Below are positions 2,188 to 49,194 of a DNA stretch of 49,336 bases, one piece after another. The translations under genes and the position numbers were made by a program. Where the stretch lies: sequence record PP558327; one strand, given 5' to 3'. The DNA is from Escherichia phage FCWL1. Position 1 is the first letter of the stretch; the number at the start of each line of letters is the position of its first letter. The notes beneath the pieces are model-generated. The model saw only the letters and a list, made by a program, of their open reading frames with translations, searched no databases and had not been told where the DNA came from.

Positions 2188-2214
2188 AACCCCATCGACA
2201 ACGAACGAGGACGA

Positions 2215-2258
2215 TAGCCACGAATTGCTAAAACGTCGATGGGGTGATTTGATATAGT
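2215..2258 (+). promoter_or_regulatory. promoter cassette (TAGCCA-CGAAT-TGCTA, hairpin, TATAGT), second of tandem pair
   Basis: Same architecture as 2145-2187; conserved leader CATCGACAACGAAGAGAG then ATG 2291. Confidence 0.5.
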
Positions 2259-2290
2259 TACCTCATCGACAACGAAGAGAGAAAATCTAA

Positions 2291-2779
2291 ATGAAAATCA
2301 AATTAATTTGCACTGGCGGTTACAAGGGATTTACCCGAGATCTGGAAGCGGACCCTATCGTGGTTGATGCGGTGAAGTGTGATTCCAGTACTGGAGGCTA
2401 CCGTGTTAAGGTTGACGATCTGGTAAAAGCTGGCGTGTACGATCTTGATTATGGGCTTTCGGTTAGCCCGGTATTTGGTCCGGCCGACTTCAACGAGAAA
2501 GACGGAACGATGTTCTTTTTTGAGTGGGAAGTGCAAGCGAACGTCAAGCCTCGTAAGGTTCGACTTCTCAACAATGGCGGCTACCCGATGAGACCAGGTT
2601 ATGAGAATCGCACGTTCCCAGTTATTGTGGACTTCACCGAAATCACTAACAAACTGGTCTACGTCAGCAATGAGCATTTCCAGGCTGTAGGATTCACTGG
2701 CGGTATGCATAAAGAAGCGCTGTGCTTCGTTCGAGAAGAAATGCACGGTTACTATTCTGAGTGCGAGTTAGTTTACTAA
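2291..2779 (+). CDS. hypothetical protein (162 aa)
   Basis: ORF downstream of tandem promoter cassettes. Confidence 0.55.
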   Translation: MKIKLICTGGYKGFTRDLEADPIVVDAVKCDSSTGGYRVKVDDLVKAGVYDLDYGLSVSPVFGPADFNEKDGTMFFFEWEVQANVKPRKVRLLNNGGYPMRPGYENRTFPVIVDFTEITNKLVYVSNEHFQAVGFTGGMHKEALCFVREEMHGYYSECELVY

Positions 2780-5959: not shown

Positions 5960-6532
5960 ATGAAAACAGCTATCATTTTAAACGGCGCACCTGGAGCGGG
6001 AAAAGACACTATCGGATGCATCCTTGCTGACACTTACGATCACGTAGCCTTGCGCAGCTTCAAAGCGCCAATGTTTGAGATTGCCAGGGCAATCCTGGGT
6101 GAAGCTAACTACGAGTATTTCATGTTCTTGTATGAGGACCGTCGATATAAAGAAGAGCCAGCATCAATCCTGAACGGTAAAAGCCCGCGCCAGTTTATGA
6201 TCTGGATTAGCGAGGAAGTCATCAAGCCGCAGTTCGGAAATCGCTTCTTCGGTATGCGAGCGGAAAGCAAGGTGAAAGAGTCGCACTCCCTTTCGGTATT
6301 TACTGATGGTGGATTCAAAGACGAAATCTTGCAGATGATTGAAGGTGATATCCAGGTCAAGCTATGTCGAATACATCGCAACGGTTGCAGCTTTGATAAC
6401 GACAGCCGCGACTATATCTATCTTGACGACATGATCGGGGTTAACGGTTATCAGGAATGTGACTTCTTTTCTGTCGAAGGTCATCCAGAAATTACCGCTC
6501 AGCACATAGCCGCCACGTTCATCAATAAATAG
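5960..6532 (+). CDS. P-loop nucleotide kinase (dNMP kinase-like)
   Basis: Walker A GAPGAGKDT at N-terminus; NGKSP motif; 190 aa. Confidence 0.55.
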   Translation: MKTAIILNGAPGAGKDTIGCILADTYDHVALRSFKAPMFEIARAILGEANYEYFMFLYEDRRYKEEPASILNGKSPRQFMIWISEEVIKPQFGNRFFGMRAESKVKESHSLSVFTDGGFKDEILQMIEGDIQVKLCRIHRNGCSFDNDSRDYIYLDDMIGVNGYQECDFFSVEGHPEITAQHIAATFINK

Positions 6533-6742
6533 ATGACGGTATCAACTGATAAGTTTTTCACTTGCACTAAAACTTCTGAAGTATTCGAACTGGTTCATAC
6601 TGATAATGGTGATTTCATGCATGACGGTTGCGACGTTTTCATTGAAGTGAAAGAAAGCGACTATGACGACGGAGTTTATTACAGCCCGGCAGTTAACACG
6701 CAGTTTTTTACCCCGATCGAGGAAGATGGAGAAGAGGCATGA
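6533..6742 (+). CDS. hypothetical acidic protein (69 aa)
   Basis: ORF abutting kinase stop. Confidence 0.4.
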   Translation: MTVSTDKFFTCTKTSEVFELVHTDNGDFMHDGCDVFIEVKESDYDDGVYYSPAVNTQFFTPIEEDGEEA

Positions 6743-8320: not shown

Positions 8321-8845
8321 ATGAGTGAACATAAAAACGCTCCCGTTGTTCAGGGAGGTAATTTCAAAGAGCTATACAAGAAAAAGTTCGGCACTGTTCT
8401 TGCTAAGAATCGGGCAATGACGCCTGAGCAACTATTCGATCTGTCAGTTAAGTATTTCGAATGGGCTGAAGACAATGCGATCAAGGCTTCTGAGTCTGCC
8501 AGCTTTCAGGGTGGCGTTTATGAATCGCTAGTTCATAAGCCGCGCGTCTTCACCTGGACCGGATACCGACTATTCATCGGTGCAAGCGAGGCCGCAATCA
8601 TTAAGTGGAAGCGAGAGGAAGAATACAGTGAGGTTATGGAGTTTGTGGAATCGGTAATCAACGAGCAAAAATTCCAGCTTGCCGCCAACGGTGTTATTAA
8701 CGCCTCATTTATCGGTAAGGATCTCGGAATCGACAAGCCAGCCTCAATCAATATCGAAAACTCGTCAGCTTCCGCATCGACCGCTGTCGCCACTACTGAG
8801 GACGCAATGAAAGAGGCTGTAAACAGTATTCTTGACATGCTTTAA
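8321..8845 (+). CDS. terminase small subunit
   Basis: 174-aa protein directly upstream of terminase large subunit; RBS AAAGAGG; helical N-terminal region typical of small terminases. Confidence 0.55.
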   Translation: MSEHKNAPVVQGGNFKELYKKKFGTVLAKNRAMTPEQLFDLSVKYFEWAEDNAIKASESASFQGGVYESLVHKPRVFTWTGYRLFIGASEAAIIKWKREEEYSEVMEFVESVINEQKFQLAANGVINASFIGKDLGIDKPASINIENSSASASTAVATTEDAMKEAVNSILDML

Positions 8846-8883
8846 CGTTACGGGCGCGCAAGCGCCCATACAGGAGAATTGAT

Positions 8884-10452
8884 ATGATTCAATGGGAAGA
8901 ACTCGACGCAACTCAGAAGTTGGCGATCAAAAAAATGAGCGAGGCCAATTTCGAAAAAATGATTCGGATCTGGTTTCAGCTTATGCAGGCTCAGCAGTTC
9001 CAGCCTAACTGGCATCACCTTTACCTATGTCACGAAGTGGAGGAAATTATTGCAGGCCGACGCGGTAACACTATCTTTAACGTCACGCCAGGCTCCGGTA
9101 AAACTGAGGTGTTCTCAATTCACCTTCCGGTGTACGCAATGCTCAAGTGTAAAAAGGTGAGAAACCTTAACGTGTCGTTTGCCGACAGCTTAGTTAAGCG
9201 TAACAGTAAGCGTGTCCGTGAGATTATCAGCAGCAACGAATTTCAAGAGCTATGGCCTTGCAAGTTCGGTACATCGAAAGACGAGGAGATGCAGGTTCTT
9301 AATGAAGACGGAAAGGTTTGGTTTGAGCTAATCTCCGCAGCGGCTGGTGGTCGTATTACTGGTTCGCGTGGTGGGTACATGATGCCAGGATTCTCAGGTA
9401 TGGTAATGCTCGACGATATCGACAAGCCTGATGATATGTTCTCAAAGGTTAAGCGTGAGCGTACGCACATGCTATTGAAAAACACCATTCGATCCCGTCG
9501 TATGCATAACGAAACGCCAATTATCGCAATTCAGCAGCGACTACATGCTCAGGATTCAACCTGGTTCATGATGAATGGCGGGATGGGTATTGAGTTTGAC
9601 CAAATCTCAATCCCGGCGCTGGTGACGGAAGAATACGGAAAGACACTTCCTGATTGGTTGCAGCCTTACTTTGAGCGTGATGTTTTATCGTCTGAGTATG
9701 TAGAATTGGATGGCGTTAAGCATTACTCTTTTTGGCCCAGCAAGGAAAGCGTTCACGACCTGTTAGCCTTGCGAGAAGCTGATCAGTACACCTTTGACTC
9801 TCAGTATCAGCAGAAGCCGATCGCGCTTGGTGGCTCCGTGTTTAACTCGGAGTGGTGGACCTATTACGGCAGCAGCCTTGACGCTGACGAGCCAGATCCT
9901 GGTAAATATGATTACCGTTTTATCACAGCAGATACCGCTCAGAAGACGGGTGAGCTAAACGACTACACGGTCTTTTGTTTATGGGGTAAGAAAAACGATA
10001 AGGTTTACTTTATCGACGGCATTCGCGGCAAGTGGGAAGCGCCTGATATGGAGAAACAATTTACCGCCTTTGTGAATCAGGCATGGAGGCACAATAAATC
10101 AATGGGCGTGCTTCGCAAAATCTACGTGGAAGATAAAGCGAGCGGAACGGGCTTGATTCAGAACTTAAGGAAAAAGACCCCGATCTCAATTACACCATTG
10201 CAACGTAACAAAGATAAAGTTACCCGAGCGATGGATGCGCAGCCAGTTATTAAGGCCGGGCGTGTAGTTCTTCCAGAAGAGCACCCTATGCTTGCGGAAA
10301 TCATCGCAGAGCATAGCGCTTTCACATATGATGACACACATCCGCATGATGACATTGTCGATAACTTCATGGATGCGGCGAACATTGAATTGCTGACTAT
10401 TGACGATCCTATTGAGCGAATGAAGCGACTTGCCGGGATGGTTAAGCGGTAA
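8884..10452 (+). CDS. terminase large subunit
   Basis: 522 aa; ATPase Walker A-like VTPGSGKTE, Walker B MVMLDDIDKPDD; C-terminal nuclease-like acidic residues; position before portal. Confidence 0.85.
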   Translation: MIQWEELDATQKLAIKKMSEANFEKMIRIWFQLMQAQQFQPNWHHLYLCHEVEEIIAGRRGNTIFNVTPGSGKTEVFSIHLPVYAMLKCKKVRNLNVSFADSLVKRNSKRVREIISSNEFQELWPCKFGTSKDEEMQVLNEDGKVWFELISAAAGGRITGSRGGYMMPGFSGMVMLDDIDKPDDMFSKVKRERTHMLLKNTIRSRRMHNETPIIAIQQRLHAQDSTWFMMNGGMGIEFDQISIPALVTEEYGKTLPDWLQPYFERDVLSSEYVELDGVKHYSFWPSKESVHDLLALREADQYTFDSQYQQKPIALGGSVFNSEWWTYYGSSLDADEPDPGKYDYRFITADTAQKTGELNDYTVFCLWGKKNDKVYFIDGIRGKWEAPDMEKQFTAFVNQAWRHNKSMGVLRKIYVEDKASGTGLIQNLRKKTPISITPLQRNKDKVTRAMDAQPVIKAGRVVLPEEHPMLAEIIAEHSAFTYDDTHPHDDIVDNFMDAANIELLTIDDPIERMKRLAGMVKR

Positions 10453-14206: not shown

Positions 14207-14974
14207 ATGGCTTACGAAAATTTGTTCTTGCGCCCCGCGTGTCCGGGAAATATTTCTGATACTTCAACCTACAATATTGATGGAGCTTGTGTGGCTCAAG
14301 GTGACATTGGGTTCGGCTCAGCGGTTCAGGTTGTAGGCATCGTTGACGGTGTAAAAGTTGTGGCGGCGCTTCCTGATGGTGGAACTCCTTACGGTATCGC
14401 TTTCCGTTCCCAATATGAACACCTGAGCGGTAAAATCCTTGACGGTGAAGTGTGCAACGTCGTTTCTCACGGTCGCGTATGGACTCTTACTTCTCTTGGT
14501 GAGGCTCCCAGCTTGTTCTCAAAGTTACAGTTTGGGTCTGGTGGAGTTGTTACTGGTGGATCTGGTTCCGCAGGTTGGACATTTGCGGGTGGCTTTGTTA
14601 AGCATGAAGATGGCTACATCATTGAGGTTCAGGTGAAACAAAATGCTTTCATCGCTCCACCGCCACCGCCCCCTGTCGTTCTTGTTGAATCTGCTACAAT
14701 CGCCACTGACAAGGAAAGCCCTCAACCAAACAATGTTACGATCCAGTGTGTAGCTAATGCTCTTCCGGATAATGCAACCGATAAGACTGGTAAATGGTCA
14801 ATCGACGCTACCAATATCGCCACTGTCGATCCGGACTCAGGTCTTGTAACTCCTGTTGGTGGAGAGGTAGTCGGTGATTTCAATATTACCTGGACGGCTA
14901 ACGATGCCAGCAAGACGACGGCAACTATTGCTTATCGCGTAGAAGCAGTGCCAACGCCAGAGGTTGATGCATAA
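14207..14974 (+). CDS. capsid decoration-like protein (paralog B) with poly-Pro linker and C-terminal Ig-like domain
   Basis: N-terminal homology to 13668 product; APPPPPPVVL linker; C-terminal beta-rich domain resembling bacterial Ig-like (Big_2-type) folds. Confidence 0.45.
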   Translation: MAYENLFLRPACPGNISDTSTYNIDGACVAQGDIGFGSAVQVVGIVDGVKVVAALPDGGTPYGIAFRSQYEHLSGKILDGEVCNVVSHGRVWTLTSLGEAPSLFSKLQFGSGGVVTGGSGSAGWTFAGGFVKHEDGYIIEVQVKQNAFIAPPPPPPVVLVESATIATDKESPQPNNVTIQCVANALPDNATDKTGKWSIDATNIATVDPDSGLVTPVGGEVVGDFNITWTANDASKTTATIAYRVEAVPTPEVDA

Positions 14975-32033: not shown

Positions 32034-32447
32034 ATGCATATTATCACTGGAGAGATCCGAAAAGAACCTAAGATTCTTGAACGTAACGGCGGGAATACTT
32101 ATATAATCGAACTGGCAGAGAGCTACAAGCCTCGAGATGGAGATCGAGAATACACCAACTACACATTCTTTTTTAGCGACGGTGGAAAGCCTGGCCTTGC
32201 TGACTGGTATCGTGAAGCATTCCAGGTTGGTCGCGTCGTATCAGTATCATGCGAGACGTTGAAGATCTCATCCCGTGAACACAATGGAACGGTTTACAAT
32301 TCATTGCAGGCCGCTGACTTCCCGAAGTTGGTATTTAGTCAACGAGGACAAAGCAATCAACAACGAGCACCGCAGCAACAACAGCGAACGCAATCACAGC
32401 CACAGCCAAATCCTCAATCAACTTTCGATGATGATATCCCGTTCTAA
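32034..32447 (+). CDS. ssb: single-stranded DNA-binding protein
   Basis: OB-fold-sized N-domain, Gln/Pro-rich linker, C-terminal acidic tip DDDIPF identical to bacterial SSB tails. Confidence 0.8.
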   Translation: MHIITGEIRKEPKILERNGGNTYIIELAESYKPRDGDREYTNYTFFFSDGGKPGLADWYREAFQVGRVVSVSCETLKISSREHNGTVYNSLQAADFPKLVFSQRGQSNQQRAPQQQQRTQSQPQPNPQSTFDDDIPF

Positions 32448-32475: not shown

Positions 32476-33981
32476 ATGGCTTTATATCGACGCGGTACTG
32501 CATCAATGGATGCAGACGGAACGGTTCACGGAACCGATACAAAATGGAAAGACCAGCTTGCTCTTATTCGCGTAGGTGCAACTATCGTGTTCCTTGAGCA
32601 ACCAATTAAGCTAGCTGTGATTAGCGATATCGTTAGTGATACAGAATTAAAGGCTATCTCTACTGATGGTCAGACTGCCGATGACGGTAAGTATGTGATC
32701 CTACTTAATGACTCTCTAACCGTTAACGGATTAGCTCAAAACGTCGCCGAGACTCTTCGATACTATCAAAGCAAAGAGACTGAGATTGCGGCAGCTATAG
32801 ACCTGATAAATCAGCTTGATATGAATAAACTTGAGCAAATAGTTGCTGATGTGAATCAGGCGAAATCTGATTCTCAAGCTGCGCAAAATCAGGCTGAATT
32901 AGCGCGTGACGATGCGGTAAGCTCAAAAGATGCGGCTGCGGTAAGTGCTCAAGAAGCAAAAGACGCAGCTAACAGCATCAATGCTGAAAATCTTTTAACT
33001 AAGGATGGCAATTTAGCTGGTCTTGAGGATAAAAAAGAGTCAAGAAAAAATATTGGGTTAGGTGAAAATGATGCTGTTAACTTTCTTGCTATTAACACCA
33101 CTGGCGCTATAGGTGCAGGAAGGAATTCATGGGACGGTTCTAGCTGGGGTAGTCAGTCCATATTGTCATCATTGATGATTATGTCACCTGATGGAATATC
33201 TACGCCAGGTATTTACGTCAGAAAAGAACGTAGCGATAATGGTTATGCTGGGGCTTTATTATTTTATGAGGGGGCAAACTACTTCGAGACTAACAATAGA
33301 TTCAGAGCTAATCAGTTTTTATGCCAGAAAACATCTATGGGTTACAACCAGATGTGGTCTGCTTCATGCTTCCAGGGTAATGCTTACACCGCTGATAGTG
33401 GTGCTGAAAACTATCAATCACTTATTGCTGGATCGTGTGGCACCAGAGGTCAGGGATACGTTGGCGGCGTAGCATTTGGCATGATGACTACGGGTAATCC
33501 TGAATGGCCCAGGGCACAAATATCAGTAGGCACTCAAGATAGGGATGGAGCAGGCAATATTGGTCTGCAAATGCATTTCAGGTTTATGGCTTCAGGGCAA
33601 ATATCTTACGCTGGACCGCAAGGGGCTGGAAGTTTCCAACAGGTTCCGGCATCTGACAGAAATATAAAGCACGGCATAAAGGATGATGAATCAAGCATTG
33701 CATACAACAACATAAAATCAATGAGATTTAGGAACTTTATATTTAACGATGATGAGCAAGAAAGGGTAAGGAGAGGTGTTATAGCTCAGGAGATAGAAGA
33801 GATCGACAATCTATATGTTAAGAGAAGGGTGTATGAGAGCCACGAGCTAAACGGGCCAAAAGTTGAAAGGCTTGAGCTTGATACAACTCCTTTATTGCTT
33901 GACACTATGAGAGCTTTACAGGATACAATAAAGAAAGTTGAAGAGTTACAAGAAGAGATAAAAATGTTGAAGTCCAAATGA
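32476..33981 (+). CDS. side tail fibre with C-terminal intramolecular chaperone (peptidase S74-like) domain
   Basis: C-terminal ASDRNIKHGIKD...IAQEIEEI... coiled-coil matches auto-cleaving chaperone domains of tail fibres/endosialidases; start placed after terminator (track ORF 32275 over-extended across ssb). Confidence 0.65.
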   Translation: MALYRRGTASMDADGTVHGTDTKWKDQLALIRVGATIVFLEQPIKLAVISDIVSDTELKAISTDGQTADDGKYVILLNDSLTVNGLAQNVAETLRYYQSKETEIAAAIDLINQLDMNKLEQIVADVNQAKSDSQAAQNQAELARDDAVSSKDAAAVSAQEAKDAANSINAENLLTKDGNLAGLEDKKESRKNIGLGENDAVNFLAINTTGAIGAGRNSWDGSSWGSQSILSSLMIMSPDGISTPGIYVRKERSDNGYAGALLFYEGANYFETNNRFRANQFLCQKTSMGYNQMWSASCFQGNAYTADSGAENYQSLIAGSCGTRGQGYVGGVAFGMMTTGNPEWPRAQISVGTQDRDGAGNIGLQMHFRFMASGQISYAGPQGAGSFQQVPASDRNIKHGIKDDESSIAYNNIKSMRFRNFIFNDDEQERVRRGVIAQEIEEIDNLYVKRRVYESHELNGPKVERLELDTTPLLLDTMRALQDTIKKVEELQEEIKMLKSK

Positions 33982-34002
33982 AATATAAACTCCTTAAGTA
34001 AA

Positions 34003-34017
34003 TAGCACGAATTGCTA
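34003..34017. promoter_or_regulatory. palindrome TAGCA-CGAAT-TGCTA upstream of primase gene
   Basis: Perfect operator-like palindrome just downstream of tail fibre stop. Confidence 0.45.
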
Positions 34018-34081
34018 AACACAGATTTTATCATCGCGCCACGAGTCTTGCAACGGGCAATAAAAAACCGCCCGAAGGCGG

Positions 34082-35002
34082 ATGATGTTTCAGAAAGAGG
34101 ACGTTTTGCCGTACATGAAGGGGTTATGGCGCGAGGCTTTCCAATCAATCTGCGGATTGCCGAATGATGTTTTTAATAAGAAACACCAACCTTGCCCTAA
34201 CTGCGGGGGTAAGGACCGCTTTCGCTGGACTGATAACCTTAACACTCCGGGCGACGGCGGTGCGATCTGCAACTCATGCGGTAACGACTCTGGAGTCGGT
34301 TGGTTGATTAAATTAACTGGTATGCCGTACAGCGAATGTATAAATATCCTGGGAAGATTTCTCGGCAAGGTTCCGCAGGAATACATTGTCAAGGTCAACA
34401 AAAAAGCGCGAAGAACTCCGGTAGCTGGCGTCAATGTTATGATGGCAGAACACGAGGCAGTGATGAAAGTTATGGAGCGCACAGAGAAGCGCATAAACAC
34501 ACCTCTAAGCATGTTTGAGTCGCTACCTACTGAATCATTCGACGTTGGCGTAAAACGTCGAGAGGATGGCGGCGAGAGTGTATTTCACACCATACCATGT
34601 CAACTTGTACACGAGGACGGTCTTGATGAAGAGTTTTGCAATATTTTGATTATTGATGAGGAGGGTAGGGAGTCATTTTATGCAAAGAAATACACAAGTT
34701 GCTCGGTTGCCGTGACTGGTAAAACTGAAAAAGCGATCTACTTATGCCTTAATTGGATTGATGCTCAGCATATTGCATTTCACACAAAGCAAGAGGTATG
34801 GGCCTGCTTCACTCCTGAAAATCTAGAAATGGTTGCGTACAGATACAAGGGAGATCGGGAGGTAAGGGTGGCGTGCGAACCATCTGATAAAGAAACTTTA
34901 TACATGGCAGACGACAGACAATTAAAAATAATCATCCCGAATCAGGGAGGATACCGCTCAGGAATGCAAGCTAAGTTATTCTCAGCAAGTGATCTACTAT
35001 AA
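34082..35002 (+). CDS. primase-type zinc-ribbon protein (putative DNA primase)
   Basis: CPNCGGKDRFRW...GDGGAICNSCG Zn-ribbon typical of phage primase N-termini; start codon uncertain (hairpin directly upstream, no SD). Confidence 0.5.
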   Translation: MMFQKEDVLPYMKGLWREAFQSICGLPNDVFNKKHQPCPNCGGKDRFRWTDNLNTPGDGGAICNSCGNDSGVGWLIKLTGMPYSECINILGRFLGKVPQEYIVKVNKKARRTPVAGVNVMMAEHEAVMKVMERTEKRINTPLSMFESLPTESFDVGVKRREDGGESVFHTIPCQLVHEDGLDEEFCNILIIDEEGRESFYAKKYTSCSVAVTGKTEKAIYLCLNWIDAQHIAFHTKQEVWACFTPENLEMVAYRYKGDREVRVACEPSDKETLYMADDRQLKIIIPNQGGYRSGMQAKLFSASDLL

Positions 35003-35051
35003 AAATTCTTCGTTCACTTCCAGATCTCCAAAATAAAAAACGCGTAGAAGG

Positions 35052-35531
35052 ATGTTAACCCGCTACGCGTCGTTTGTTATGAGTATTCAACGTATCGCAG
35101 AGTCAACTGGTGAAATCGATAAACGTCACATCAATGGTAACAACGGAACACGACGCGGTAAAGATAAAAAGCCTCGACAGCGCTGCGGCTTCTATATTCA
35201 TAAAGAAGAAACACGCGCCGGATTGCGAGCGCGACTTGATGCGCTTATCGAATATTATGGTGGCCCTGCGGCCTGCGCAAAAGCTCTAAAGGTTAGCAAT
35301 CAGACGGTGCAAGGCTGGAAAGAACGCAACATGATTTCGTGGCAAGGTGCTGAAGCTGCGCATCGTGCTTACCGACGACAGGGGTGTAAAGGATTTCGTG
35401 CCGCATGGTTGCGATTCGACCTGAAGTTTGACGGTAACGGCAAGTGCCTTGAGAAGCGATGCAAGAACAAGAAATTTATGCGCGTCGTGAAGAAGGAAGA
35501 TATCGGGACGACCAATAGCATTTTTAGTTAA
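35052..35531 (+). CDS. HTH DNA-binding protein (Cro/YdaS-like), candidate regulator
   Basis: Segment YGGPAACAKALKVSNQTVQGWKERNMISWQGAEAA matches Cro/YdaS-type helix-turn-helix pattern; start uncertain. Confidence 0.4.
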   Translation: MLTRYASFVMSIQRIAESTGEIDKRHINGNNGTRRGKDKKPRQRCGFYIHKEETRAGLRARLDALIEYYGGPAACAKALKVSNQTVQGWKERNMISWQGAEAAHRAYRRQGCKGFRAAWLRFDLKFDGNGKCLEKRCKNKKFMRVVKKEDIGTTNSIFS

Positions 35532-42536: not shown

Positions 42537-42551
42537 GCCTCCTTTTCTTTT
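42520..42551 (+). terminator. terminator hairpin (AGGAGG...CCTCCT) + T-tract after lysis cassette
   Basis: Stem-loop containing spanin stop codon, followed by TTTTCTTTT. Confidence 0.5.
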
Positions 42552-42595
42552 GCGACAAGGAGGGGGAGTTACTCCTTCACGTAAAAAGGTACAAA

Positions 42596-42638
42596 TAGCA
42601 CTTTTTGTTAAAACACCCGATCTCGCATCGGGTATATT
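42596..42638 (+). promoter_or_regulatory. promoter cassette (TAGCA-CTTTT-TGTTA, hairpin, TATATT)
   Basis: 22-bp spacer with CCCGATCTCGCATCGGG hairpin; leader CATCGAAACGAAACG. Confidence 0.5.
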
Positions 42639-42672
42639 TGTTTCATCGAAACGAAACGACCTGAAGGAAAAC

Positions 42673-42891
42673 ATCACGGCTAACAAATTTTTAGTAGTTC
42701 GCGTTTACAATCACTCAAACGGTACTAGCAGTGAGATTCCTACTCTTTACAGTAAAGCTGATGGGTGGACCGAAGAATCAGCGGTAGCTAACGAGAAGAA
42801 GGTTGCTGAGATGTACGGTGACACTTGCGAGTTTGAAGTTCGAGAATATGCAAAACTCACTAACGAGAGTTACATGTGGGCAGATGCATAA
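42673..42891 (+). CDS. hypothetical protein with apparent non-AUG start (ATC/ACG) or start-codon mutation
   Basis: Conserved cassette and GAAGGA SD present but the codon at the expected start position is ATC-ACG; ORF open to 42891. Confidence 0.3.
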   Translation: MTANKFLVVRVYNHSNGTSSEIPTLYSKADGWTEESAVANEKKVAEMYGDTCEFEVREYAKLTNESYMWADA

Positions 42892-42927
42892 AGATTATGC
42901 TCGCTTTCGTTACTGGCCCTCATTGAA

Positions 42928-43362
42928 GTGAGTAACAGACTCAACAACCCTTGCATGCTGCTTCTTCTAGATCTGTTCATATTCTGCGAAGGTTACGACA
43001 AATACACTCGACAGCACATAGCGAAATTTATATACGCCCACAAGGAAAGTGAGCGATTTGCTAAGGCTGCTGGAATGACTCGCCGTGAATTTACAAGCGC
43101 GCTATCTAAGGAGTTTTGCGCTCGTTGCGTGACTGAGGGTTACTTAGATCGCAAGGATGGAGTTTACTGGTGCAAGGGAAAGATTAAGCGCCCGGTAATG
43201 ATGAAGCTGATGTGTATTGATGGCTACAACAATCGGTATACGTGGGAAATGATGCACATTGGAGAGATGAGTGATGAAGATTTGTTTGGCGAACGTAGAA
43301 ACATTGATAGATCGGAACGTCGAATTGTGCGCAAGGCTCCAGCTTACGAAAGAAGAATTTGA
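42928..43362 (+). CDS. hypothetical protein (144 aa)
   Basis: GTG-initiated ORF; basic C-terminus. Confidence 0.4.
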   Translation: MSNRLNNPCMLLLLDLFIFCEGYDKYTRQHIAKFIYAHKESERFAKAAGMTRREFTSALSKEFCARCVTEGYLDRKDGVYWCKGKIKRPVMMKLMCIDGYNNRYTWEMMHIGEMSDEDLFGERRNIDRSERRIVRKAPAYERRI

Positions 43363-44935
43363 ATCAATGTTTAATATTAAGCCAAAACTGAATTACCAAC
43401 AGATTATTGAGATCGCCAATAGCACTGGAGTTAATCCGGTGGCGATCGCAATTCGTGAAAACAGCTATGGTGACTCAGTTTCATTTTGGCAAGATCCGAT
43501 CGATATCAATAGCGGCAACGATAAGTTCCCTCTGATTTCGTTAGGTGGCGATAACCTGGTATTCGAATATGCAAAAGCAAAAGCTGAATCAGTCCAGTTC
43601 CCGGTTTCATCCGCGTATGCTCATTTTATAGGTTGCATCTCAGCCGCGATGCTCGGGAAGTTTTGGGTGCAATATCACGGAGAGGAACAGCCGACCGCGC
43701 TTTACATGGTAATCAGCCAGCCACCATCAACAGGTAAGTCCGCGATTAACTCAGCGGCGATTACACCTATGCGTGCGGAGATTCAGCGACTGAATGAAGA
43801 GCGCAAAAAGGAACGTATTCGTTTAACCAGTCAGCTACGCCAGGTTGAGAAGGAAATCAAGAATGATCCTAAAGGAAACACGACTGCGGCACTATGCGAG
43901 GACAAAGAAAAACTGGAAGAGAAGATCAAAAAGATGGCTGATATTGTTTTTGCTGTATCAGATCCTACACCTGAAGGTCTTGCGAAAGTAGCCGCTGTTC
44001 AGGGCCACTTTTCCGTAATTTCTGATGAGGCAACGGCAATCAATACATTGCTCGGTCTTACGTATGGAGGTTCAGATAAGAAATCTAACAGTGAGCTTAT
44101 TCTTAAGGCGTGGGATAAAAACCATATGGAGGTCGCTCGCTCCAATCAGGACAACAACTTGTCTCTTTGCCCGGTTGGCTCGATCTGCGTAATTGCGCAG
44201 GATGAAACAATCAAAGGTATCATGGACGCAGGCCAACGAGGTATCGGTGTATCTGAGCGCTTCCTGTTAGTTCGCGAGGAACCGCTTTTAGGTACTCGTA
44301 TTCTTTGTGATGAAAATGGTGATGCATTGTATAAAGAAGTCGATCGAGGACTGGTTAGCAAATATTACAGACTCGTTCACAACATCATGAAGGAGGAAAA
44401 CGTTGTTCTCTCTGTAAGCCGTAATGCTATGCGTGAATTAAACCTTGCGCGTCAGGCGATGGAACCGGATTTCGCCGCAGGTGGGAAATACTCTCACTCA
44501 ATGCTACGCGGTCATCTCGGCAAGTTCGATAAGCACGCCTTGCGTATTGCTTCAGTTCTCCACACGATCAAGAATTGGGAGGGTGAATCACCGAACCGTT
44601 CCAACCGTGAGATTGACCTTGAAACAATGCAGGAAGCAATCATGATCTTCAATGAGCTTTCCAGGACTTATCTGTCGTCTGCCAGCGCTGCCGGGTATGC
44701 TGGTGATGAGGCTGAATCTCGTAAGCTGATTGATGTTATCACTGAGATCGCGAAGAAAAACAAAGGCCGCGCACCTATTCATAGCATCGTTGCAAAGTGC
44801 CGGAACGTTACGCCTTTCAACGGTCAACAGAAAGTATCTGAGCGAATCGATAGTCTTCTTATCACGCTCGAAGAGATGAACTACACTTGCCGGATTGATG
44901 ATATTGTTTTCATTAATCCTCGGCTGATGGGTTAA
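43271..44935 (+). CDS. large protein with deviant P-loop (QPPSTGKS), possible NTPase
   Basis: 554 aa; Walker A-like STGKS and hydrophobic-Asp Walker B-like IVFAVSD; start may be the internal ATG near 43367. Confidence 0.4.
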   Translation: MMKICLANVETLIDRNVELCARLQLTKEEFESMFNIKPKLNYQQIIEIANSTGVNPVAIAIRENSYGDSVSFWQDPIDINSGNDKFPLISLGGDNLVFEYAKAKAESVQFPVSSAYAHFIGCISAAMLGKFWVQYHGEEQPTALYMVISQPPSTGKSAINSAAITPMRAEIQRLNEERKKERIRLTSQLRQVEKEIKNDPKGNTTAALCEDKEKLEEKIKKMADIVFAVSDPTPEGLAKVAAVQGHFSVISDEATAINTLLGLTYGGSDKKSNSELILKAWDKNHMEVARSNQDNNLSLCPVGSICVIAQDETIKGIMDAGQRGIGVSERFLLVREEPLLGTRILCDENGDALYKEVDRGLVSKYYRLVHNIMKEENVVLSVSRNAMRELNLARQAMEPDFAAGGKYSHSMLRGHLGKFDKHALRIASVLHTIKNWEGESPNRSNREIDLETMQEAIMIFNELSRTYLSSASAAGYAGDEAESRKLIDVITEIAKKNKGRAPIHSIVAKCRNVTPFNGQQKVSERIDSLLITLEEMNYTCRIDDIVFINPRLMG

Positions 44936-44992
44936 CACAATAAACTCCTTGGTTGACGGTGTAAATGATACACCGCCAATGGTACACGCGTT

Positions 44993-45007
44993 TTGCAAAA
45001 AGTGCTA
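44993..45007. promoter_or_regulatory. palindrome TTGCA-AAAAG-TGCTA abutting start codon of 45012 gene
   Basis: Operator-like site ends 4 nt before ATG; no canonical SD. Confidence 0.4.
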
Positions 45008-45011
45008 TTGG

Positions 45012-45428
45012 ATGAAATCCATCAAACTTAAATGTACTTCCGCAGATAAAATCACAGGATTTGAAGTAAACAACCTGTACAAAGGTCGTGAGCGCTATGA
45101 TGGCACTCGCGAAGTAAAATTAAAATGCGGAAAGTATTTAAAACTTGAAAAGCATGATGAATTACAGATTCACGGATCTGATGAAATCTTCTTCGCGAAG
45201 TTCGCTGAGTTGAAAACAAAGACGCTCAAGTGCACCGGGCTTGACCATCGTAATCCGATGAAAAAATCATTCAAACTTGGCAAGCGTTACCAGGTGGAAA
45301 GCGGTCGCGCTCTCGGCGGCGTAGCTGGTTATATTTTTGATGAGGATGGTTGTCGTTGGACATTGTTTCGCGAAGAGATCGGTTTTAGCATAGCTGACGG
45401 CACAACCTTTGAGGCCAAATACTTATAA
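45012..45428 (+). CDS. protein with two copies of the KxxC repeat domain
   Basis: IKLKCTSADKITGFEVNNLYKG and KTLKCTGLD...KLGKRYQV...YIFDEDG match the 4167/7312/41137 pattern. Confidence 0.45.
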   Translation: MKSIKLKCTSADKITGFEVNNLYKGRERYDGTREVKLKCGKYLKLEKHDELQIHGSDEIFFAKFAELKTKTLKCTGLDHRNPMKKSFKLGKRYQVESGRALGGVAGYIFDEDGCRWTLFREEIGFSIADGTTFEAKYL

Positions 45429-45492
45429 TGCGTTAGCTCCTGATTGGTTATCTTGAATAAGGTCACTTTATCAAATGACCTTACGGCAATAT

Positions 45493-45507
45493 TAACAAAT
45501 CGTGCTA
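45493..45507. promoter_or_regulatory. palindrome TAACA-AATCG-TGCTA abutting ATG 45509
   Basis: Operator-like site ends 1 nt before start codon. Confidence 0.4.
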
Positions 45508-45508
45508 T

Positions 45509-45721
45509 ATGGAACAGGATAATTTCTGGACTCGTTATTTTGCAGCGCTCGATGCCGGGCTTGGTGCGGAATGGTGTATCAAGGTTGCATATAAAGAAAT
45601 TACGCTTGACGACGCGCTAGGGAATATGGATATGGACGCAGAAAGTGAATATAATCCCGACTTCGATATGCCAGGCGATGATACTGGTGATAATGACGAC
45701 GACGATTATATTCCCTGGTAA
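45509..45721 (+). CDS. small highly acidic protein with SSB-tail-like C-terminus (DDDDYIPW)
   Basis: 70 aa, about 30% Asp/Glu; C-terminal DDDDYIPW resembles SSB tip DDDIPF. Confidence 0.45.
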   Translation: MEQDNFWTRYFAALDAGLGAEWCIKVAYKEITLDDALGNMDMDAESEYNPDFDMPGDDTGDNDDDDYIPW

Positions 45722-45724
45722 TAA

Positions 45725-45949
45725 ATGAGCATTAAAGTTGAGAATATCATCAAGCATCTTAACGCAAAAGGCCGTGTAGTTATCAAGATGGATAAGTCTT
45801 CCGGTTTTATTTCAATGACGGTAACTAAGACGCGTAACGGAAATAGCGTTATCGGAAGTGTACCGGGATCTCGACTGATAAATGCAACAGATGCGGATGT
45901 TCGCGCAACGCTTGAGGATAACTCGATTTACATTAATTCATGGAGCTAA
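45725..45949 (+). CDS. hypothetical protein (74 aa)
   Basis: ORF 3 nt after previous stop. Confidence 0.4.
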   Translation: MSIKVENIIKHLNAKGRVVIKMDKSSGFISMTVTKTRNGNSVIGSVPGSRLINATDADVRATLEDNSIYINSWS

Positions 45950-46011
45950 TTTTAATTCCTTTGTTTTGTTTGGTGTGTGAGTAATATACCTTACTCACTA
46001 TTTATTGTCTT

Positions 46012-46026
46012 TAGCAATTAGTGCTA
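46012..46026. promoter_or_regulatory. palindrome TAGCA-ATTAG-TGCTA abutting ATG 46027
   Basis: Perfect half-sites; preceded by 8-bp hairpin GTGAGTAA/TTACTCAC. Confidence 0.4.
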
Positions 46027-46347
46027 ATGAACCACACTTATAAAATCACAACGAAGTCACCGAAGATTAACGGAAGCACGGTTGCGGCGCTTAATAACGC
46101 GGCAGCAATCCACGAAAAAAACATCATGGAGCGCGTGAAGGCGGCAGTAGGCCGATTCTATGGAATCAACGCCGACATTGCTGACAGCAAGCGACTGTTC
46201 AAATACGTGCCAGGTCATCCATATAGCCGGATGATTGATATTAAGCATGATAAAGAACTGGTTCGAATAGGTTCGCTTAGCATTGACGAGTTTGACCATA
46301 GCATTAACCTTGTGACGGCGTATCAAACCTGGGACGGTAAAAAATGA
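46027..46347 (+). CDS. hypothetical protein (106 aa)
   Basis: ATG immediately after palindrome. Confidence 0.4.
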   Translation: MNHTYKITTKSPKINGSTVAALNNAAAIHEKNIMERVKAAVGRFYGINADIADSKRLFKYVPGHPYSRMIDIKHDKELVRIGSLSIDEFDHSINLVTAYQTWDGKK

Positions 46348-46503
46348 TTTATATTCACACTTTCTATACTGGCAAATTTAACAGCGTAAAAAATGTTCGC
46401 GTTTACGATAGTCACCAAAAAGCAATGATGCAGAAAGTAGTTCTAGGTGGAACAATCAAGGAGTGCCAAGTAATTTCCGAGTACTGATATTCCCCCTAAC
46501 CAG

Positions 46504-46875
46504 ATGCTTAAACAATTCGTAGACCTGGACTTCTCAGCAAGCACAGCAATCCAGACTGACGAGAAAGAGAACGTAGCGATCGAGAACATTGCGCGCAAGA
46601 TTTACAACAAGCAAGAGAAGGCAGTGAGAGCCGCTCTAAGCGCTTATTACGGTGTAAGTGATGCAATGGAGTGCGTGAACCGAGTAACGCGCGTGGCGGA
46701 CCATTCTGGCGCGTCTCGTTTCGTAGATAACGATACTGGAGAGATGATAATCCAGCTTAACAATCCATCAATGCGCACTGAACTTGGCAATATTGCATTG
46801 TGGGGTGTGGCTAACTACTCAATCACCGTCAACTCCTGCATTGCGGGTCGCGTCAAGGAGGCATTATATGAGTGA
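46504..46875 (+). CDS. hypothetical protein (123 aa)
   Basis: ORF; weak resemblance to 46027 product. Confidence 0.4.
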   Translation: MLKQFVDLDFSASTAIQTDEKENVAIENIARKIYNKQEKAVRAALSAYYGVSDAMECVNRVTRVADHSGASRFVDNDTGEMIIQLNNPSMRTELGNIALWGVANYSITVNSCIAGRVKEALYE

Positions 46876-47068
46876 TAATATTTACCGCGTGGTTGCGATC
46901 TCACGCAGGACGCAAAAGAGCGTAGTTGCCTACATGGGAAATGGCGCAATTGAGGCAACAGACGCATTCGAGCTACTGAAGAATAACGAAGGATTTATGA
47001 ACACGTTCCGCGTTAGACTTGAGCGTCTTGAACCTGTTATCATTGATGAAGCGAGAAAGCTATCCTGA
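46868..47068 (+). CDS. hypothetical protein (66 aa)
   Basis: ATG overlapping upstream stop. Confidence 0.35.
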   Translation: MSDNIYRVVAISRRTQKSVVAYMGNGAIEATDAFELLKNNEGFMNTFRVRLERLEPVIIDEARKLS

Positions 47069-47127
47069 GGTGATTGCCTCGTTTTCTGTTGATGGGAGAA
47101 CTATAGCAGCCCTCCCGCATTTTCGTT

Positions 47128-47142
47128 TAGCAAAAAGTGCTA
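47128..47142. promoter_or_regulatory. palindrome TAGCA-AAAAG-TGCTA abutting ATG 47144
   Basis: Same sequence as site at 105-119. Confidence 0.4.
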
Positions 47143-47143
47143 T

Positions 47144-47329
47144 ATGAAAACAAAATTAGTTCATAAATCAGAAATCAAGATCGGCGATACCGTGATTCAC
47201 AACGGAGAGCTTAAAACTGTTGGCAAGGAGTCAATAACCAACGATGAATTTATGGGTCTGTTATTGTTCGGGGACTCCTATCGACTTGGTTACAAAATGG
47301 TTGAGCTTGTTGAAGATGTAAAATTCTAA
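47144..47329 (+). CDS. hypothetical protein (61 aa)
   Basis: ATG 1 nt after palindrome. Confidence 0.4.
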   Translation: MKTKLVHKSEIKIGDTVIHNGELKTVGKESITNDEFMGLLLFGDSYRLGYKMVELVEDVKF

Positions 47330-47357
47330 TTACTGGCCTGTTAAACCGATCGAGTTT

Positions 47358-47372
47358 TAACAAAAAATGCTA
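47358..47372. promoter_or_regulatory. palindrome TAACA-AAAAA-TGCTA containing ATG 47367
   Basis: Start codon lies inside the palindrome. Confidence 0.35.
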
Positions 47373-47726
47373 TCAGCAATCGCTTTGAAAAATCCACGAG
47401 GATATAAGGAACGTATCAGCTTCGTTTTGGCAGACTTGCCGCCCAGCTTGTTTTGCTGTGCAGAGTACCCGTCAGGCAGGCTTACAGGTTTTCTCTCGGG
47501 CATGACAAAATCGATGGAACCAAAATTTGAATGTGCCGTGCAATGCATTAGCGTTAGCACCGACAGCTTCACGAATCAATCAGTGTATGAGATCTACCTT
47601 ATTGATGGTGGGTACTTCGCTACTGACAATCAGCAAAATCAGATCGGCGTTTTCCGCTCAATGAATGGATGGGATCGCTTCCTGACCAATAACGGGCAGA
47701 CGGTATTCAAAGAGGTAACGAAATGA
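47367..47726 (+). CDS. hypothetical protein (119 aa)
   Basis: ORF; overlaps downstream gene by ATGA. Confidence 0.4.
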   Translation: MLSAIALKNPRGYKERISFVLADLPPSLFCCAEYPSGRLTGFLSGMTKSMEPKFECAVQCISVSTDSFTNQSVYEIYLIDGGYFATDNQQNQIGVFRSMNGWDRFLTNNGQTVFKEVTK

Positions 47727-48271
47727 AATTAATCTGGTCGCTATTTGACGGTTCCGGTCTTGCAGGTCATGAACTGGCTAAGCAAGGTCATAAGGTGATG
47801 TGCTTCAACTTTGACGGAGCCGATCACGGAGATTACGAAAAGTACAATGCCAGAGTGGAGCATCCGAACATTGAGTATGTGAACGTGTTCATTGATGAAA
47901 CGTTCGAACGTGATGCTATCGCTGGCGTGTATGGCAAGCCGGATTTCATTATGGCTTTCCCGCCGTGCACTGACCTGGCTGTTAGTGGTGCGCGACACTT
48001 TGCCAGCAAGCGTGAACGCGATCCGTTATTCCAGGAGAAGGCTGTCGCTAGTGCCCGGATTGCTGCGAACATTGGAGATAGCCTGGGCGTGACTTACATC
48101 ATTGAGAATCCGGTGAGCGCCCTGTCGTCTGCGTGGAGAAAACCAAATCACTCCTTCAATCCCTGGGAGTATGGCGGCTATCTTCCTGAGAATGACTCAC
48201 ACCCCTGGTTCCCGATGTATATTGCGCCGCGAGATGCTTACCCGAAGAAAACTTGTCTTTGGGACCTCTGA
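47723..48271 (+). CDS. truncated DNA cytosine-5 methyltransferase-like protein (182 aa)
   Basis: C5-MTase-like motif I LFDGSGLAG (FxGxG), motif IV-like FPPCTDLAVSG (PC), motif VI-like IIENP (ENV); too short to contain a target-recognition domain. Confidence 0.45.
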   Translation: MKLIWSLFDGSGLAGHELAKQGHKVMCFNFDGADHGDYEKYNARVEHPNIEYVNVFIDETFERDAIAGVYGKPDFIMAFPPCTDLAVSGARHFASKRERDPLFQEKAVASARIAANIGDSLGVTYIIENPVSALSSAWRKPNHSFNPWEYGGYLPENDSHPWFPMYIAPRDAYPKKTCLWDL

Positions 48272-48430: not shown

Positions 48431-48451
48431 TATATTCGCTGATAGGTGAAA

Positions 48452-48494
48452 TAGCACTTTTTGTTAAAGCCCGGTCGAGCGGATCGGGTATTAT
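48452..48494 (+). promoter_or_regulatory. promoter cassette (TAGCA-CTTTT-TGTTA, hairpin, TATTAT)
   Basis: 22-bp spacer with CCCGGTCGAGCGGATCGGG hairpin; RBS CAGAGGAAT; gene at 48527. Confidence 0.5.
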
Positions 48495-48526
48495 CTTCTC
48501 ATTGACACGATACAGAGGAATCGAAG

Positions 48527-48721
48527 ATGGAAACGCAAATTGACGTAGTGGTTGTTCAGCGAGACTCAACTCATGAAAAGGGTCTGTTCAAGAAAGGAAC
48601 CGAAATCACGATCGACCTTGAGGATATGGTTGCGTATCACTCTGGCCTCACTTGGAACGTGGTGCGCGTAGGCAGCGACTACAAACTCAAAGGCTTTAAC
48701 ACTTACTTTGCGGAGGTTTAA
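48527..48721 (+). CDS. hypothetical protein (64 aa)
   Basis: ORF after promoter cassette. Confidence 0.45.
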   Translation: METQIDVVVVQRDSTHEKGLFKKGTEITIDLEDMVAYHSGLTWNVVRVGSDYKLKGFNTYFAEV

Positions 48722-48723
48722 TT

Positions 48724-49194
48724 ATGGCGACAATTACCGTATTTCTTGCTAAAGATGAGCTTGATGGCGAAATGTCATTCTTCGCGTTTGAGCATAAAAC
48801 CGGCTCGCACTGGCACACTTACAGCCATTACACGGTTATCTCAATCGAAGCGTACGACGGCGAACTGCTCACTGATAAACTGAGTAATTTCATTGAAGCC
48901 GTTAAAGCTAGCGGCGGCTGCGAGTGGAAGGAAGATCACGAAGTTATGCGAATGTTTGAGATGGTCAATCCGGTTCGCCTTGAGTCGTTCGAGCTTGATG
49001 CTAATGTGACTATCAAGGTGAGAAAGTCGGGTGAGTTATTGCCAGGGATGCGTGTACTGACTGGTTACTCTGGCCGTAAGGTGTGGCGCACTGTATCCAA
49101 GATTCGCCAGCGCTCGGCAACATGCTATAGCGTATTCTTTGATGATGGTTGGAATATGATGTCCGGTAGTGAGGTAAAGTATCTCACCAAATAG
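48724..49194 (+). CDS. hypothetical protein (156 aa)
   Basis: ORF 3 nt after previous stop. Confidence 0.5.
   Translation: MATITVFLAKDELDGEMSFFAFEHKTGSHWHTYSHYTVISIEAYDGELLTDKLSNFIEAVKASGGCEWKEDHEVMRMFEMVNPVRLESFELDANVTIKVRKSGELLPGMRVLTGYSGRKVWRTVSKIRQRSATCYSVFFDDGWNMMSGSEVKYLTK

What the first reader, a model, noticed from the sequence alone, without database searches (positions are those of the whole stretch)
45509..45721. Small hyper-acidic protein ending in an SSB-tip-like DDDDYIPW: candidate DNA mimic or SSB-interactome decoy
The 70-aa product is roughly one-third Asp/Glu and ends DDDDYIPW. The phage's own SSB (32034-32447) ends in the canonical bacterial tip DDDIPF. An acidic tail with a terminal aromatic residue is the docking motif used by SSB to recruit more than a dozen host replication and repair proteins. 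A free acidic protein carrying a similar tip could compete for those sites or act as a DNA mimic against restriction enzymes (Ocr/ArdA-like logic).
Basis: inference. Interest (0 to 1): 0.5.

Follow-up and report, generated by a model that had tools for sequence, protein, structure and literature searches.

The report
Phage protein with SSB-like tail tip
A small, very acidic T1-phage protein belongs to a widespread, unstudied phage family that has no DNA-binding domain yet nearly always ends in the same few residues (D-x-I-P-F/W) bacteria use on SSB to recruit replication and repair enzymes, so it probably plugs into one of those docking sites.

Summary
Window 45509-45721 (+) encodes a 70-aa protein with 29% Asp/Glu and net charge -17. 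It is the most acidic of the 77 proteins of this T1-like phage. It ends DDDDYIPW, and the phage SSB ends DDDIPF. It is the ortholog of T1 ST6 (PHROG 9085, function unknown).

Comparative data strengthen the "SSB-tip" reading and weaken the "DNA mimic" reading. The acidic run drifts or is replaced by a 4-Cys knuckle. The C-terminal tip is kept in all 25 complete short-form cluster representatives (consensus [D/E]-x-I-P-F; W in some). In each of four Drexlerviridae genomes, only SSB and this protein end this way.

The family has a conserved ~45-aa helical N-domain, a low-confidence linker and the tip. It has no OB fold, no Pfam/PDB/PADLOC match and no bacterial homologs. It is accessory: it was found in about half of T1-like phages that carry the neighbouring helicase.

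Best reading (about 0.4): a bipartite SSB-tip mimic that occupies the SSB-tail pocket of a partner protein. An adaptor role or an unrelated partner remain open. No experiment exists.

Caveat: the window is an artificially "unidirectionalised" genome, so its local gene order is not natural.

The parts
45509..45721 (+). CDS of the 70-aa acidic protein (ortholog of T1 ST6 / phiD2-2 GP09; PHROG 9085)
45509..45646 (+). Conserved N-terminal core (residues 1-46): three short helices plus the ALG(D/N)MDMDxES motif. This is the only part shared with all relatives, including the long forms.
   Evidence: alignments; AF2 helices 6-15, 20-27, 33-37, and pLDDT 77-85 over the core in a relative
45647..45706 (+). 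Acidic linker (residues 47-66, EYNPDFDMPGDDTGDNDDDD). It is modelled as coil with low confidence and is variable in sequence and length, except for a conserved D/N-P. Most other Drexlerviridae have a Cys4 knuckle here instead.
45707..45718 (+). C-terminal tip YIPW-COOH. It is invariant in Tunavirus orthologs. Family consensus is I-P-F.
32034..32447 (+). Phage SSB (PHROG 44). Its tip DDDIPF lies at 32427-32444. It is the only other ORF in the genome with this kind of C-terminus.
45725..45949 (+). 74-aa PHROG 4344 gene. In natural genomes it lies immediately UPSTREAM of the finding (translationally coupled, with the SD GGAG inside its 3' end). It is the constant neighbour across Drexlerviridae.
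45012..45428 (+). 138-aa PHROG 2684 gene. In natural genomes it lies DOWNSTREAM of the finding.
43367..44935 (+). DUF3987 helicase (PHROG 2373). In natural genomes it lies further downstream in the same leftward operon.

Best explanation
The protein is a two-module SSB-tail mimic. A conserved ~45-aa helical N-domain is joined by a flexible acidic linker to a C-terminal D-x-(Y)I-P-W tip. The tip imitates the D-D-I-P-F-COOH tip of bacterial and phage SSB. The proposed mechanism is as follows. The terminal aromatic residue, its free carboxylate and the preceding Pro insert into the hydrophobic, basic-rimmed pocket that SSB-interacting proteins use to bind the SSB tail. The N-domain supplies a second contact that gives affinity and target specificity. 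The protein thereby occupies that pocket and competes with SSB, acting as a decoy or inhibitor of one or a few SSB-dependent host (or defence) enzymes during early-to-middle infection. SHOWN: the sequence anatomy; the family-wide conservation of the tip against a drifting linker; the uniqueness of the tip to SSB and this protein in each genome; and the absence of any OB fold or DNA-binding domain. INFERRED: that the tip binds an SSB-tail pocket; that the outcome is competition rather than recruitment; and the identity of the target.
For: (1) The tip is conserved. All 62 Tunavirus-type proteins end YIPW, although the acidic run changes (DGDD, DVDD, GEH, DNN...). All 25 complete short-form representatives end in the tip. 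Counts are: position -1 F 22 / W 3; -2 P 24/25; -3 I 20/25; -5 D/E 20/25. This matches SSB D-D-I-P-F at four of five positions.
(2) In the window, Tls, a Webervirus and Vibrio phage Vc1, only SSB (...FDDDIPF) and this family end [ILVFM]P[FW] among 318-380 ORFs.
(3) The architecture resembles the SSB tail: a coil linker modelled with low confidence, then the tip. All short forms are net acidic, -4 to -18.
(4) The N-domain is strongly conserved, with invariant D4, F6, R9, G17, L18, V26, A27, Y28, L37, G38 and E45. It also occurs without the tip in longer proteins. It therefore has its own binding role, which fits a bipartite binder.
(5) The gene is accessory. The helicase is in 900 phage records and this family in 459-502. 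It is cleanly absent at the syntenic site in the Weberviruses Roth24 and KpTDp2. This fits host modulation or counter-defence better than a core replisome part.
(6) The SSB-Ct hexapeptide DDDIPF is an established docking motif for many partners, and DnaG and chi compete for it (PMC5872125 and PMC3632105, abstracts seen).
Against: There is no experimental datum for any family member.
- The terminal residue here is Trp, not Phe.
- Two clusters end IPFW, which shifts the register of the free carboxylate.
- The most populous clade ends (K/P)-R-C-F-P-F, with a basic rather than acidic residue at -5.
- E. coli phages carry both YIPW and CFPF tips, so the tip is not dictated by the host alone. This hints at a co-evolving, possibly phage-encoded, partner.
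- A monomeric decoy must compete with SSB tetramers concentrated on ssDNA.
- The phage's own SSB uses the same pockets, so a general decoy would also hinder the phage.
Confidence: 0.4

Rival explanations
1. Adaptor rather than decoy. The N-domain binds a phage protein or phage DNA structure (for example the DUF3987 helicase, the primase, or Erf/RecE). The SSB-like tip then recruits a host SSB-partner, such as chi of the Pol III clamp loader or DnaG, to the phage replisome or recombination machinery. This would parallel T7, where both gp2.5 (SSB) and the gp4 helicase-primase carry acidic tails ending in Phe that bind T7 DNA polymerase.
For: T1-like genomes annotate a primase, two helicases, SSB, Erf and an exonuclease but no DNA polymerase, so host polymerase must be recruited. 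The gene lies in the same operon, upstream of the DUF3987 helicase, in all natural contexts. The long-form relative in Ackermannviridae lies about 1 kb from the DNA polymerase gene. The conserved N-domain implies a second partner. For the T7 precedent, the C-tail of gp2.5 interacts with T7 polymerase and helicase-primase (PMC13402713), and the Ghosh et al. 2009 title appears. The gp4 tail is from my own knowledge.
Against: About 45% of phages with the same helicase lack the gene, including close relatives where it is cleanly missing. It therefore cannot be an obligatory replisome subunit. The phage SSB already carries a perfect host-type tip.
Confidence: 0.2
2. The tip is a docking motif for a partner unrelated to the SSB interactome, for example a phage-specific protein, or a stability or turnover signal. 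On this reading the likeness to the SSB tip is convergent or coincidental.
For: Tip variants (YIPW, CFPF, IPFW, VEPF, EISF) are looser than natural SSB tips. The acidic context is absent in the largest clade. Two tip types co-exist in phages of the same host species. No homology or structural match gives independent support for an SSB link.
Against: The majority consensus D-x-I-P-F-COOH matches the SSB tip at 4 of 5 positions. The motif occurs in a phage whose only other such ORF is SSB. No other known bacterial C-terminal motif class fits: there is no Gln, as in the clamp motif QL[SD]LF, and no LAA-type degron (own knowledge).
Confidence: 0.25
3. DNA mimic (like Ocr, ArdA or T7 gp5.9): the negative charge imitates the DNA backbone and blocks type I restriction enzymes or RecBCD.
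For: It is the most acidic protein of the phage (net -17). All short relatives are net negative. In most Drexlerviridae the gene sits directly upstream of a Dcm-type methylase, an anti-restriction function. It is an accessory gene.
Against: There is no similarity to Ocr, ArdA or any Pfam or PADLOC family. The model has only three short helices plus a coil tail, with no rigid charge array. Tail acidity is not conserved: Cys4 forms have 1-2 acidic residues in the last 12 and net charge as low as -4. The uncharged I-P-F tip is what is conserved.
Confidence: 0.07

Closest known systems
C-terminal tip of bacterial SSB (SSB-Ct, ...MDFDDDIPF-COOH), the docking motif of the SSB interactome
   Same: It sits at the extreme C-terminus, has Pro at -2, Ile at -3 and a terminal aromatic residue, is preceded by acidic residues, and sits on a flexible linker. 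The family consensus [D/E]-x-I-P-F is nearly the SSB tip. The phage's own SSB carries the canonical version.
   Different: There is no OB fold and no ssDNA-binding domain, and tetramerisation is not known. In this phage the last residue is Trp and a Tyr precedes Ile. Many relatives attach the tip to a Cys4 knuckle instead of a disordered acidic linker. Binding to SSB partners is untested.
T7 gp2.5 and gp4 acidic C-terminal tails ending in Phe
   Same: These are phage proteins that carry an acidic tail with an essential terminal aromatic residue used for protein docking. Two different proteins of one phage share the same kind of tail (the gp2.5 C-tail in PMC13402713; the gp4 tail and the tolerance of other aromatic residues are from my own knowledge).
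   Different: In T7 the tails belong to large replisome enzymes and bind the phage's own polymerase. Here the carrier is a 70-aa protein with no enzymatic or DNA-binding domain, and the phage has no polymerase.
Small acidic DNA-mimic anti-restriction or anti-RecBCD proteins (Ocr, ArdA, T7 gp5.9)
   Same: A small, strongly acidic accessory phage protein from a region with other nucleic-acid-metabolism and anti-restriction genes.
   Different: There is no sequence or fold similarity. The conserved feature is a hydrophobic tip, not the charge pattern.
PHROG 9085 / 9323 / 4823 (unknown function)
   Same: Direct member of PHROG 9085 (E = 6.9e-45). It shares its N-domain with PHROG 9323 (Cys4/FPF forms) and PHROG 4823 (long forms of Ackermannviridae).
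   Different: These families carry no functional annotation, so membership gives no mechanism.

Membership tests
SSB-Ct-type docking tip (motif class, not a protein family) | Motif at the extreme C-terminus ending in an aromatic residue with a free carboxylate | tested here: met
   ...DDDDYIPW followed by a stop. 25/25 short-form representatives end in F or W.
SSB-Ct-type docking tip (motif class, not a protein family) | Pro at -2, aliphatic residue at -3, acidic residues upstream (D-D-D-I-P-F) | tested here: met
   The window has D-D-Y-I-P-W. The family has P 24/25, I 20/25 and D/E at -5 in 20/25. Exceptions: the R-C-F-P-F clade and the IPFW forms.
SSB-Ct-type docking tip (motif class, not a protein family) | Physical binding to the SSB-tail pocket of partner proteins | not testable with these tools
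   Needs binding assays or multimer structure prediction.
Bacterial/phage SSB (OB-fold ssDNA-binding protein) | OB-fold ssDNA-binding domain or homology to SSB families | tested here: not met
   No SSB Pfam or PHROG hit. The AF2 model is all-helical over residues 6-37, followed by coil. It is not an SSB.
Ocr / ArdA DNA mimics | Sequence or fold homology to Ocr or ArdA | tested here: not met
   No Pfam hit at E <= 1 other than noise. No PDB sequence or fold match.
Ocr / ArdA DNA mimics | Conserved surface array of acidic residues on a rigid scaffold | tested here: not met
   The acidic linker is modelled with low confidence and is replaced by a Cys4 knuckle with few acidic residues in most relatives.
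Ocr / ArdA DNA mimics | Inhibition of type I restriction-modification enzymes | not testable with these tools
   Needs plating or biochemical assays.
Known anti-defence or defence protein families (PADLOC-DB) | Profile match | tested here: not met
   No hit for this protein, three relatives or the two neighbours.
PHROG 9085 | Full-length profile match | tested here: met
   E = 6.9e-45, residues 1-70 against profile positions 1-69 of 69.

The most novel reading that the evidence does not exclude
Drexlerviridae (and, through the shared core domain, Ackermannviridae) encode a family of short-linear-motif mimics of the bacterial SSB hub. These would be free proteins that present an SSB C-terminal tip, either on an acidic leash or on a zinc knuckle. 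They would selectively unplug a host repair, restart or defence enzyme from SSB, or hijack it. This would be the first viral mimic of the SSB-Ct docking motif and a natural lead for SSB-interaction inhibitors.
Probability: 0.35. Interest if true: 0.8.

Novelty: new variant of a known kind. Interest (0 to 1): 0.62.

Why it matters
The SSB tail is the central recruitment hub for bacterial replication, repair and restart enzymes, and it is an antibiotic target (PMC5872125). Suppose a common phage family carries a stand-alone copy of that tail tip. Phages would then be manipulating this hub by motif mimicry, a strategy well known for eukaryotic viruses. None of my literature searches found it described for SSB. 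It would assign a testable function to a gene present in hundreds of T1-like phages, including T1 ST6. It would point to which host enzyme T1 needs to silence or capture. It would also supply natural high-affinity scaffolds (acidic-leash and zinc-knuckle versions) for probing or inhibiting SSB-partner interactions.

Tried and rejected
- Pfam, PADLOC and PDB sequence searches gave nothing meaningful: only noise such as SbcC_Walker_B at E = 0.14 and a designed repeat protein at E = 5.9.
- Foldseek against PDB and BFVD returned only chance hits or uncharacterised members of the same family.
- AF2 of a Cys4/IPF member did not resolve the putative zinc knuckle (tail pLDDT 46-54).
- The 'Phage_Mu_gp6' tag on a long relative covers only its C-terminal zinc ribbon, not the shared core (hhalign probability 0.2%). 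It gives no functional anchor.
- There is no copy in 5,426 complete E. coli genomes, so it is not a prophage gene.
- Literature searches found no description of this family or of a non-SSB phage protein with an SSB tip. The searches covered SSB C-terminal plus phage plus mimic, SSB-Ct plus anti-defence, IPF plus phage-encoded, 'C-terminal tail of SSB' plus mimics, DDDIPF plus phage, YIPW, and Drexlerviridae essentiality.
- The HIDEN-SEQ essentiality preprint and the KanT1 paper do not cover it.
- A link to Retron-Eco8 sensing of phage SSB was considered and dropped, because activation does not need the SSB C-tail (PMC13402713).
- A clamp-binding motif and a C-terminal degron were considered and rejected on sequence grounds (own knowledge).
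- Promoter and operon reading in the window itself was abandoned once the window proved to be rearranged. Natural genomes were used instead.

Full report
OBSERVATION. Window 45509-45721 (+) is an intact ATG-to-TAA ORF of 70 codons. The product is MEQDNFWTRYFAALDAGLGAEWCIKVAYKEITLDDALGNMDMDAESEYNPDFDMPGDDTGDNDDDDYIPW. It has 15 Asp and 5 Glu (28.6% overall; 41% in residues 34-70) and only three basic residues, giving net charge -17. Among the 77 deposited CDS of the near-identical natural genome it is the most acidic (genome mean D+E 12.9%, sd 4.2%). The ORF at 32034-32447 is an SSB (PHROG 44, E = 2.8e-23) ending ...TFDDDIPF.

WHAT THE WINDOW IS, AND A CAVEAT. The window is a T1-like coliphage (Tunavirus, Drexlerviridae), about 99.8% identical to Escherichia phage phiD2-2 and vB_EcoS_SH2. 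It is not collinear with them. Every CDS that lies on the minus strand in the natural genomes is reverse-complemented in place, while the intergenic spacers keep their original orientation. Two small blocks are also relocated. As a result, 44 of 48 long ORFs read on the + strand.

The CDS of interest is untouched (100% identity), but its apparent neighbourhood is inverted. In real genomes the order of transcription is PHROG 4344 gene (74 aa), then this gene, then PHROG 2684 gene (138 aa), then DUF3987 helicase. A GGAG Shine-Dalgarno sequence lies 7 nt upstream of the ATG, inside the end of the preceding gene. I therefore used natural genomes for all context arguments. The T1 ortholog is ST6 (YP_003939.1, 'hypothetical protein'), which ends DVDDYIPW.

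THE FAMILY AND ITS TIP. The protein is a full-length member of PHROG 9085 (E = 6.9e-45). Its N-terminal 47 residues also match PHROG 9323, and residues 9-65 match the middle of PHROG 4823. Among 63 close homologs, all 62 whose C-terminus is present end YIPW. The acidic run before the tip changes freely (DDDD, DGDD, DVDD, DIDD, GEH, DNN) and varies in length.

More distant Drexlerviridae (Tls gp75, Warwickvirus, Webervirus, Vibrio phage Vc1) keep the N-terminal ~46 residues but replace the acidic tail by C-x-C-x5-C-x2-C. That knuckle is followed directly by FPF, IPF or IPFW.

An exhaustive profile search of 1.84 billion cluster representatives found only 41 relatives, none bacterial. All 25 complete short forms (60-102 aa) end in the tip. 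Position -1 is F in 22 and W in 3. Position -2 is P in 24. Position -3 is I in 20. Position -5 is D/E in 20. The family consensus is thus [D/E]-x-I-P-F-COOH, against D-D-I-P-F-COOH for SSB.

In the window, Tls, a Webervirus and Vc1, exactly two of 318-380 six-frame ORFs of at least 40 aa end [ILVFM]-P-[FW](W): the SSB (always ...FDDDIPF) and this family. The conserved, selected feature is therefore the tip, not the charge.

ARCHITECTURE. AF2 with a 33-sequence alignment gives three short helices (6-15, 20-27, 33-37; pLDDT about 65-75) and an unstructured tail from about residue 40 (pLDDT 54-59). A Cys4/IPF member gives the same core with higher confidence (77-85), and its tail is unresolved.

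Invariant core positions are D4, F6, R9, A13, G17, L18, V26, A27, Y28, L37, G38 and E45. A D/N-P pair in the linker (D49, P50) and P69 are also conserved.

The core also occurs without the tip in eight longer representatives. About 250 Ackermannviridae carry a 181-aa form (PHROG 4823). In Salmonella phage Marshall that gene lies about 1 kb from the DNA polymerase gene. Two forms fuse the core to a Mu gp6-like zinc ribbon. The core is thus an autonomous module, and the SSB-like tip is an add-on specific to the short Drexlerviridae-type proteins.

DISTRIBUTION. tblastn finds the family in 459-502 phage records, whereas the neighbouring DUF3987 helicase is in 900. In the Weberviruses Roth24 and KpTDp2 the PHROG 4344 gene abuts the Dcm methylase directly, with no trace of the family. 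It is also absent around the helicase in a Braunvirinae phage and a Pseudoalteromonas phage. It is not present in any complete E. coli genome. It is therefore a frequent but dispensable accessory gene of virulent T1-like phages. In most genera it sits just upstream of the Dcm methylase.

MECHANISM. The established knowledge is this. The SSB C-terminal hexapeptide DDDIPF is the docking site for many replication, repair and restart proteins, and partners such as DnaG and chi compete for it (PMC5872125 and PMC3632105, seen).

Four observations bear on the mechanism: the near-identity of the family's tip to that motif; its strict C-terminal position; its placement on a flexible or knuckle-held stalk; and the absence of any DNA-binding domain. 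From these, the best-supported reading is that the tip inserts into an SSB-tail pocket.

The N-domain is independently conserved, which implies a second contact. Together with the accessory status, this makes me favour a bipartite competitive binder, that is, a decoy or inhibitor of a particular SSB-dependent enzyme (confidence about 0.4). The alternative is an adaptor that brings a host SSB partner to a phage protein (about 0.2). That model is attractive because T1-like genomes encode no DNA polymerase and because of the T7 gp2.5/gp4 precedent (the gp4 part is from my own knowledge).

A partner unrelated to the SSB network remains quite possible (about 0.25). The tip is looser than real SSB tips (YIPW, CFPF, IPFW). 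The largest clade has Arg at -5. Two tip types also occur in phages of the same host.

The Ocr/ArdA-like DNA-mimic idea is the least supported (about 0.07). There is no homology, no rigid acidic scaffold, and acidity is not the conserved feature.

COMPARISON AND NOVELTY. The protein works like an SSB tail but is not an SSB, because it has no OB fold. It is not a member of Ocr, ArdA or any PADLOC or Pfam family. It is a member of function-unknown PHROG 9085.

I found no paper describing this family or any non-SSB phage protein with an SSB tip in eight literature searches. The absence of evidence is limited to the held library.

I rate it a new variant of a known kind: a known docking motif on a new, stand-alone scaffold. 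All functional statements are inference. The decisive experiments are peptide-competition and pull-down assays, tip mutants, and multimer structure prediction against the SSB interactome and the T1 proteome.

Noticed in passing
whole window, e.g. 42549-48271 and 32476-35531: The window is not a natural arrangement. Compared with phiD2-2 (99.9% identity) and all other deposited T1-like genomes, every minus-strand CDS is reverse-complemented in place. The intergenic spacers keep their original orientation, so nearly all genes read on the + strand (44 of 48 long ORFs). Operon order, promoters, RBSs and terminators around flipped genes are therefore artefactual.
   Followed up: yes
window 894-1127 and 48437-49194: Two blocks are relocated relative to phiD2-2. 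GP16 (record 6310-6543) sits at 894-1127, and GP20-21 (record 8671-9428) sits at 48437-49194. An 81-bp stretch (window 2214-2294) also matches record 14759-14838.
   Followed up: no
L001 2501-2725 (Tls gp75); L002 2483-2722; L003 2501-2725; L004 2495-2725: Most Drexlerviridae relatives carry an invariant C-x-C-x5-C-x2-C motif (a putative zinc knuckle) immediately before the IPF/FPF tip, in place of the acidic linker. AF2 did not resolve it.
   Followed up: partly
L023 5001-5558 (Salmonella phage Marshall gp23): The ~45-aa core domain recurs inside a 181-aa protein (PHROG 4823) of about 250 Ackermannviridae. There it has a different conserved C-terminal motif (GGEDDNTPPLEV.MAGG...W.YQNE.NAWLDSR) and no SSB-like tip. 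The gene lies about 1 kb from the DNA polymerase gene.
   Followed up: partly
L010 879-1808 (P0192) and P0183: Two long relatives fuse the core domain to a zinc ribbon homologous to phage Mu gp6 (Mup06, an early-region protein of unknown function; BLASTP E = 2e-10).
   Followed up: partly
window 45459-45482 and 45977-45998: There are perfect or near-perfect inverted repeats in the spacers on either side of the gene pair: AAGGTCACTTTATCAAATGACCTT and GTGAGTAATATACCTTACTCAC. In the natural genome the first lies just downstream of this gene. The second overlaps a promoter-like site upstream of the PHROG 4344 gene. They may be terminator or operator elements.
   Followed up: partly
window 6533-6742; L005 10282-10449: Two other small, strongly acidic ORFs are present in the phage. 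One is 69 aa, net -14, ending IEEDGEEA. The other is 55 aa, net -10. Neither has an SSB-like tip.
   Followed up: no
L014 31762-32103; L006 5642-6004: In some lineages a 113-120-aa gene of unknown function (PHROG 22491) is inserted between the PHROG 4344 gene and the family gene. Its stop overlaps the family gene's start. Together they may form a two-gene cassette that is absent from Weberviruses lacking the family.
   Followed up: partly
public records (e.g. Klebsiella phages Kp109 and Domnhall; Pseudomonas phage Motto; JLBYU phages): Some deposited annotations label this small protein 'putative cytosine DNA methylase'. This is apparently carried over from the adjacent Dcm gene. The 69-79-aa protein has no methylase domain.
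   Followed up: no
phage collection hits: About 20 records named 'Campylobacter phage' carry typical T1-like genes (this family and the DUF3987 helicase at 57-60% identity to the coliphage versions). Their host assignment looks doubtful.
   Followed up: no
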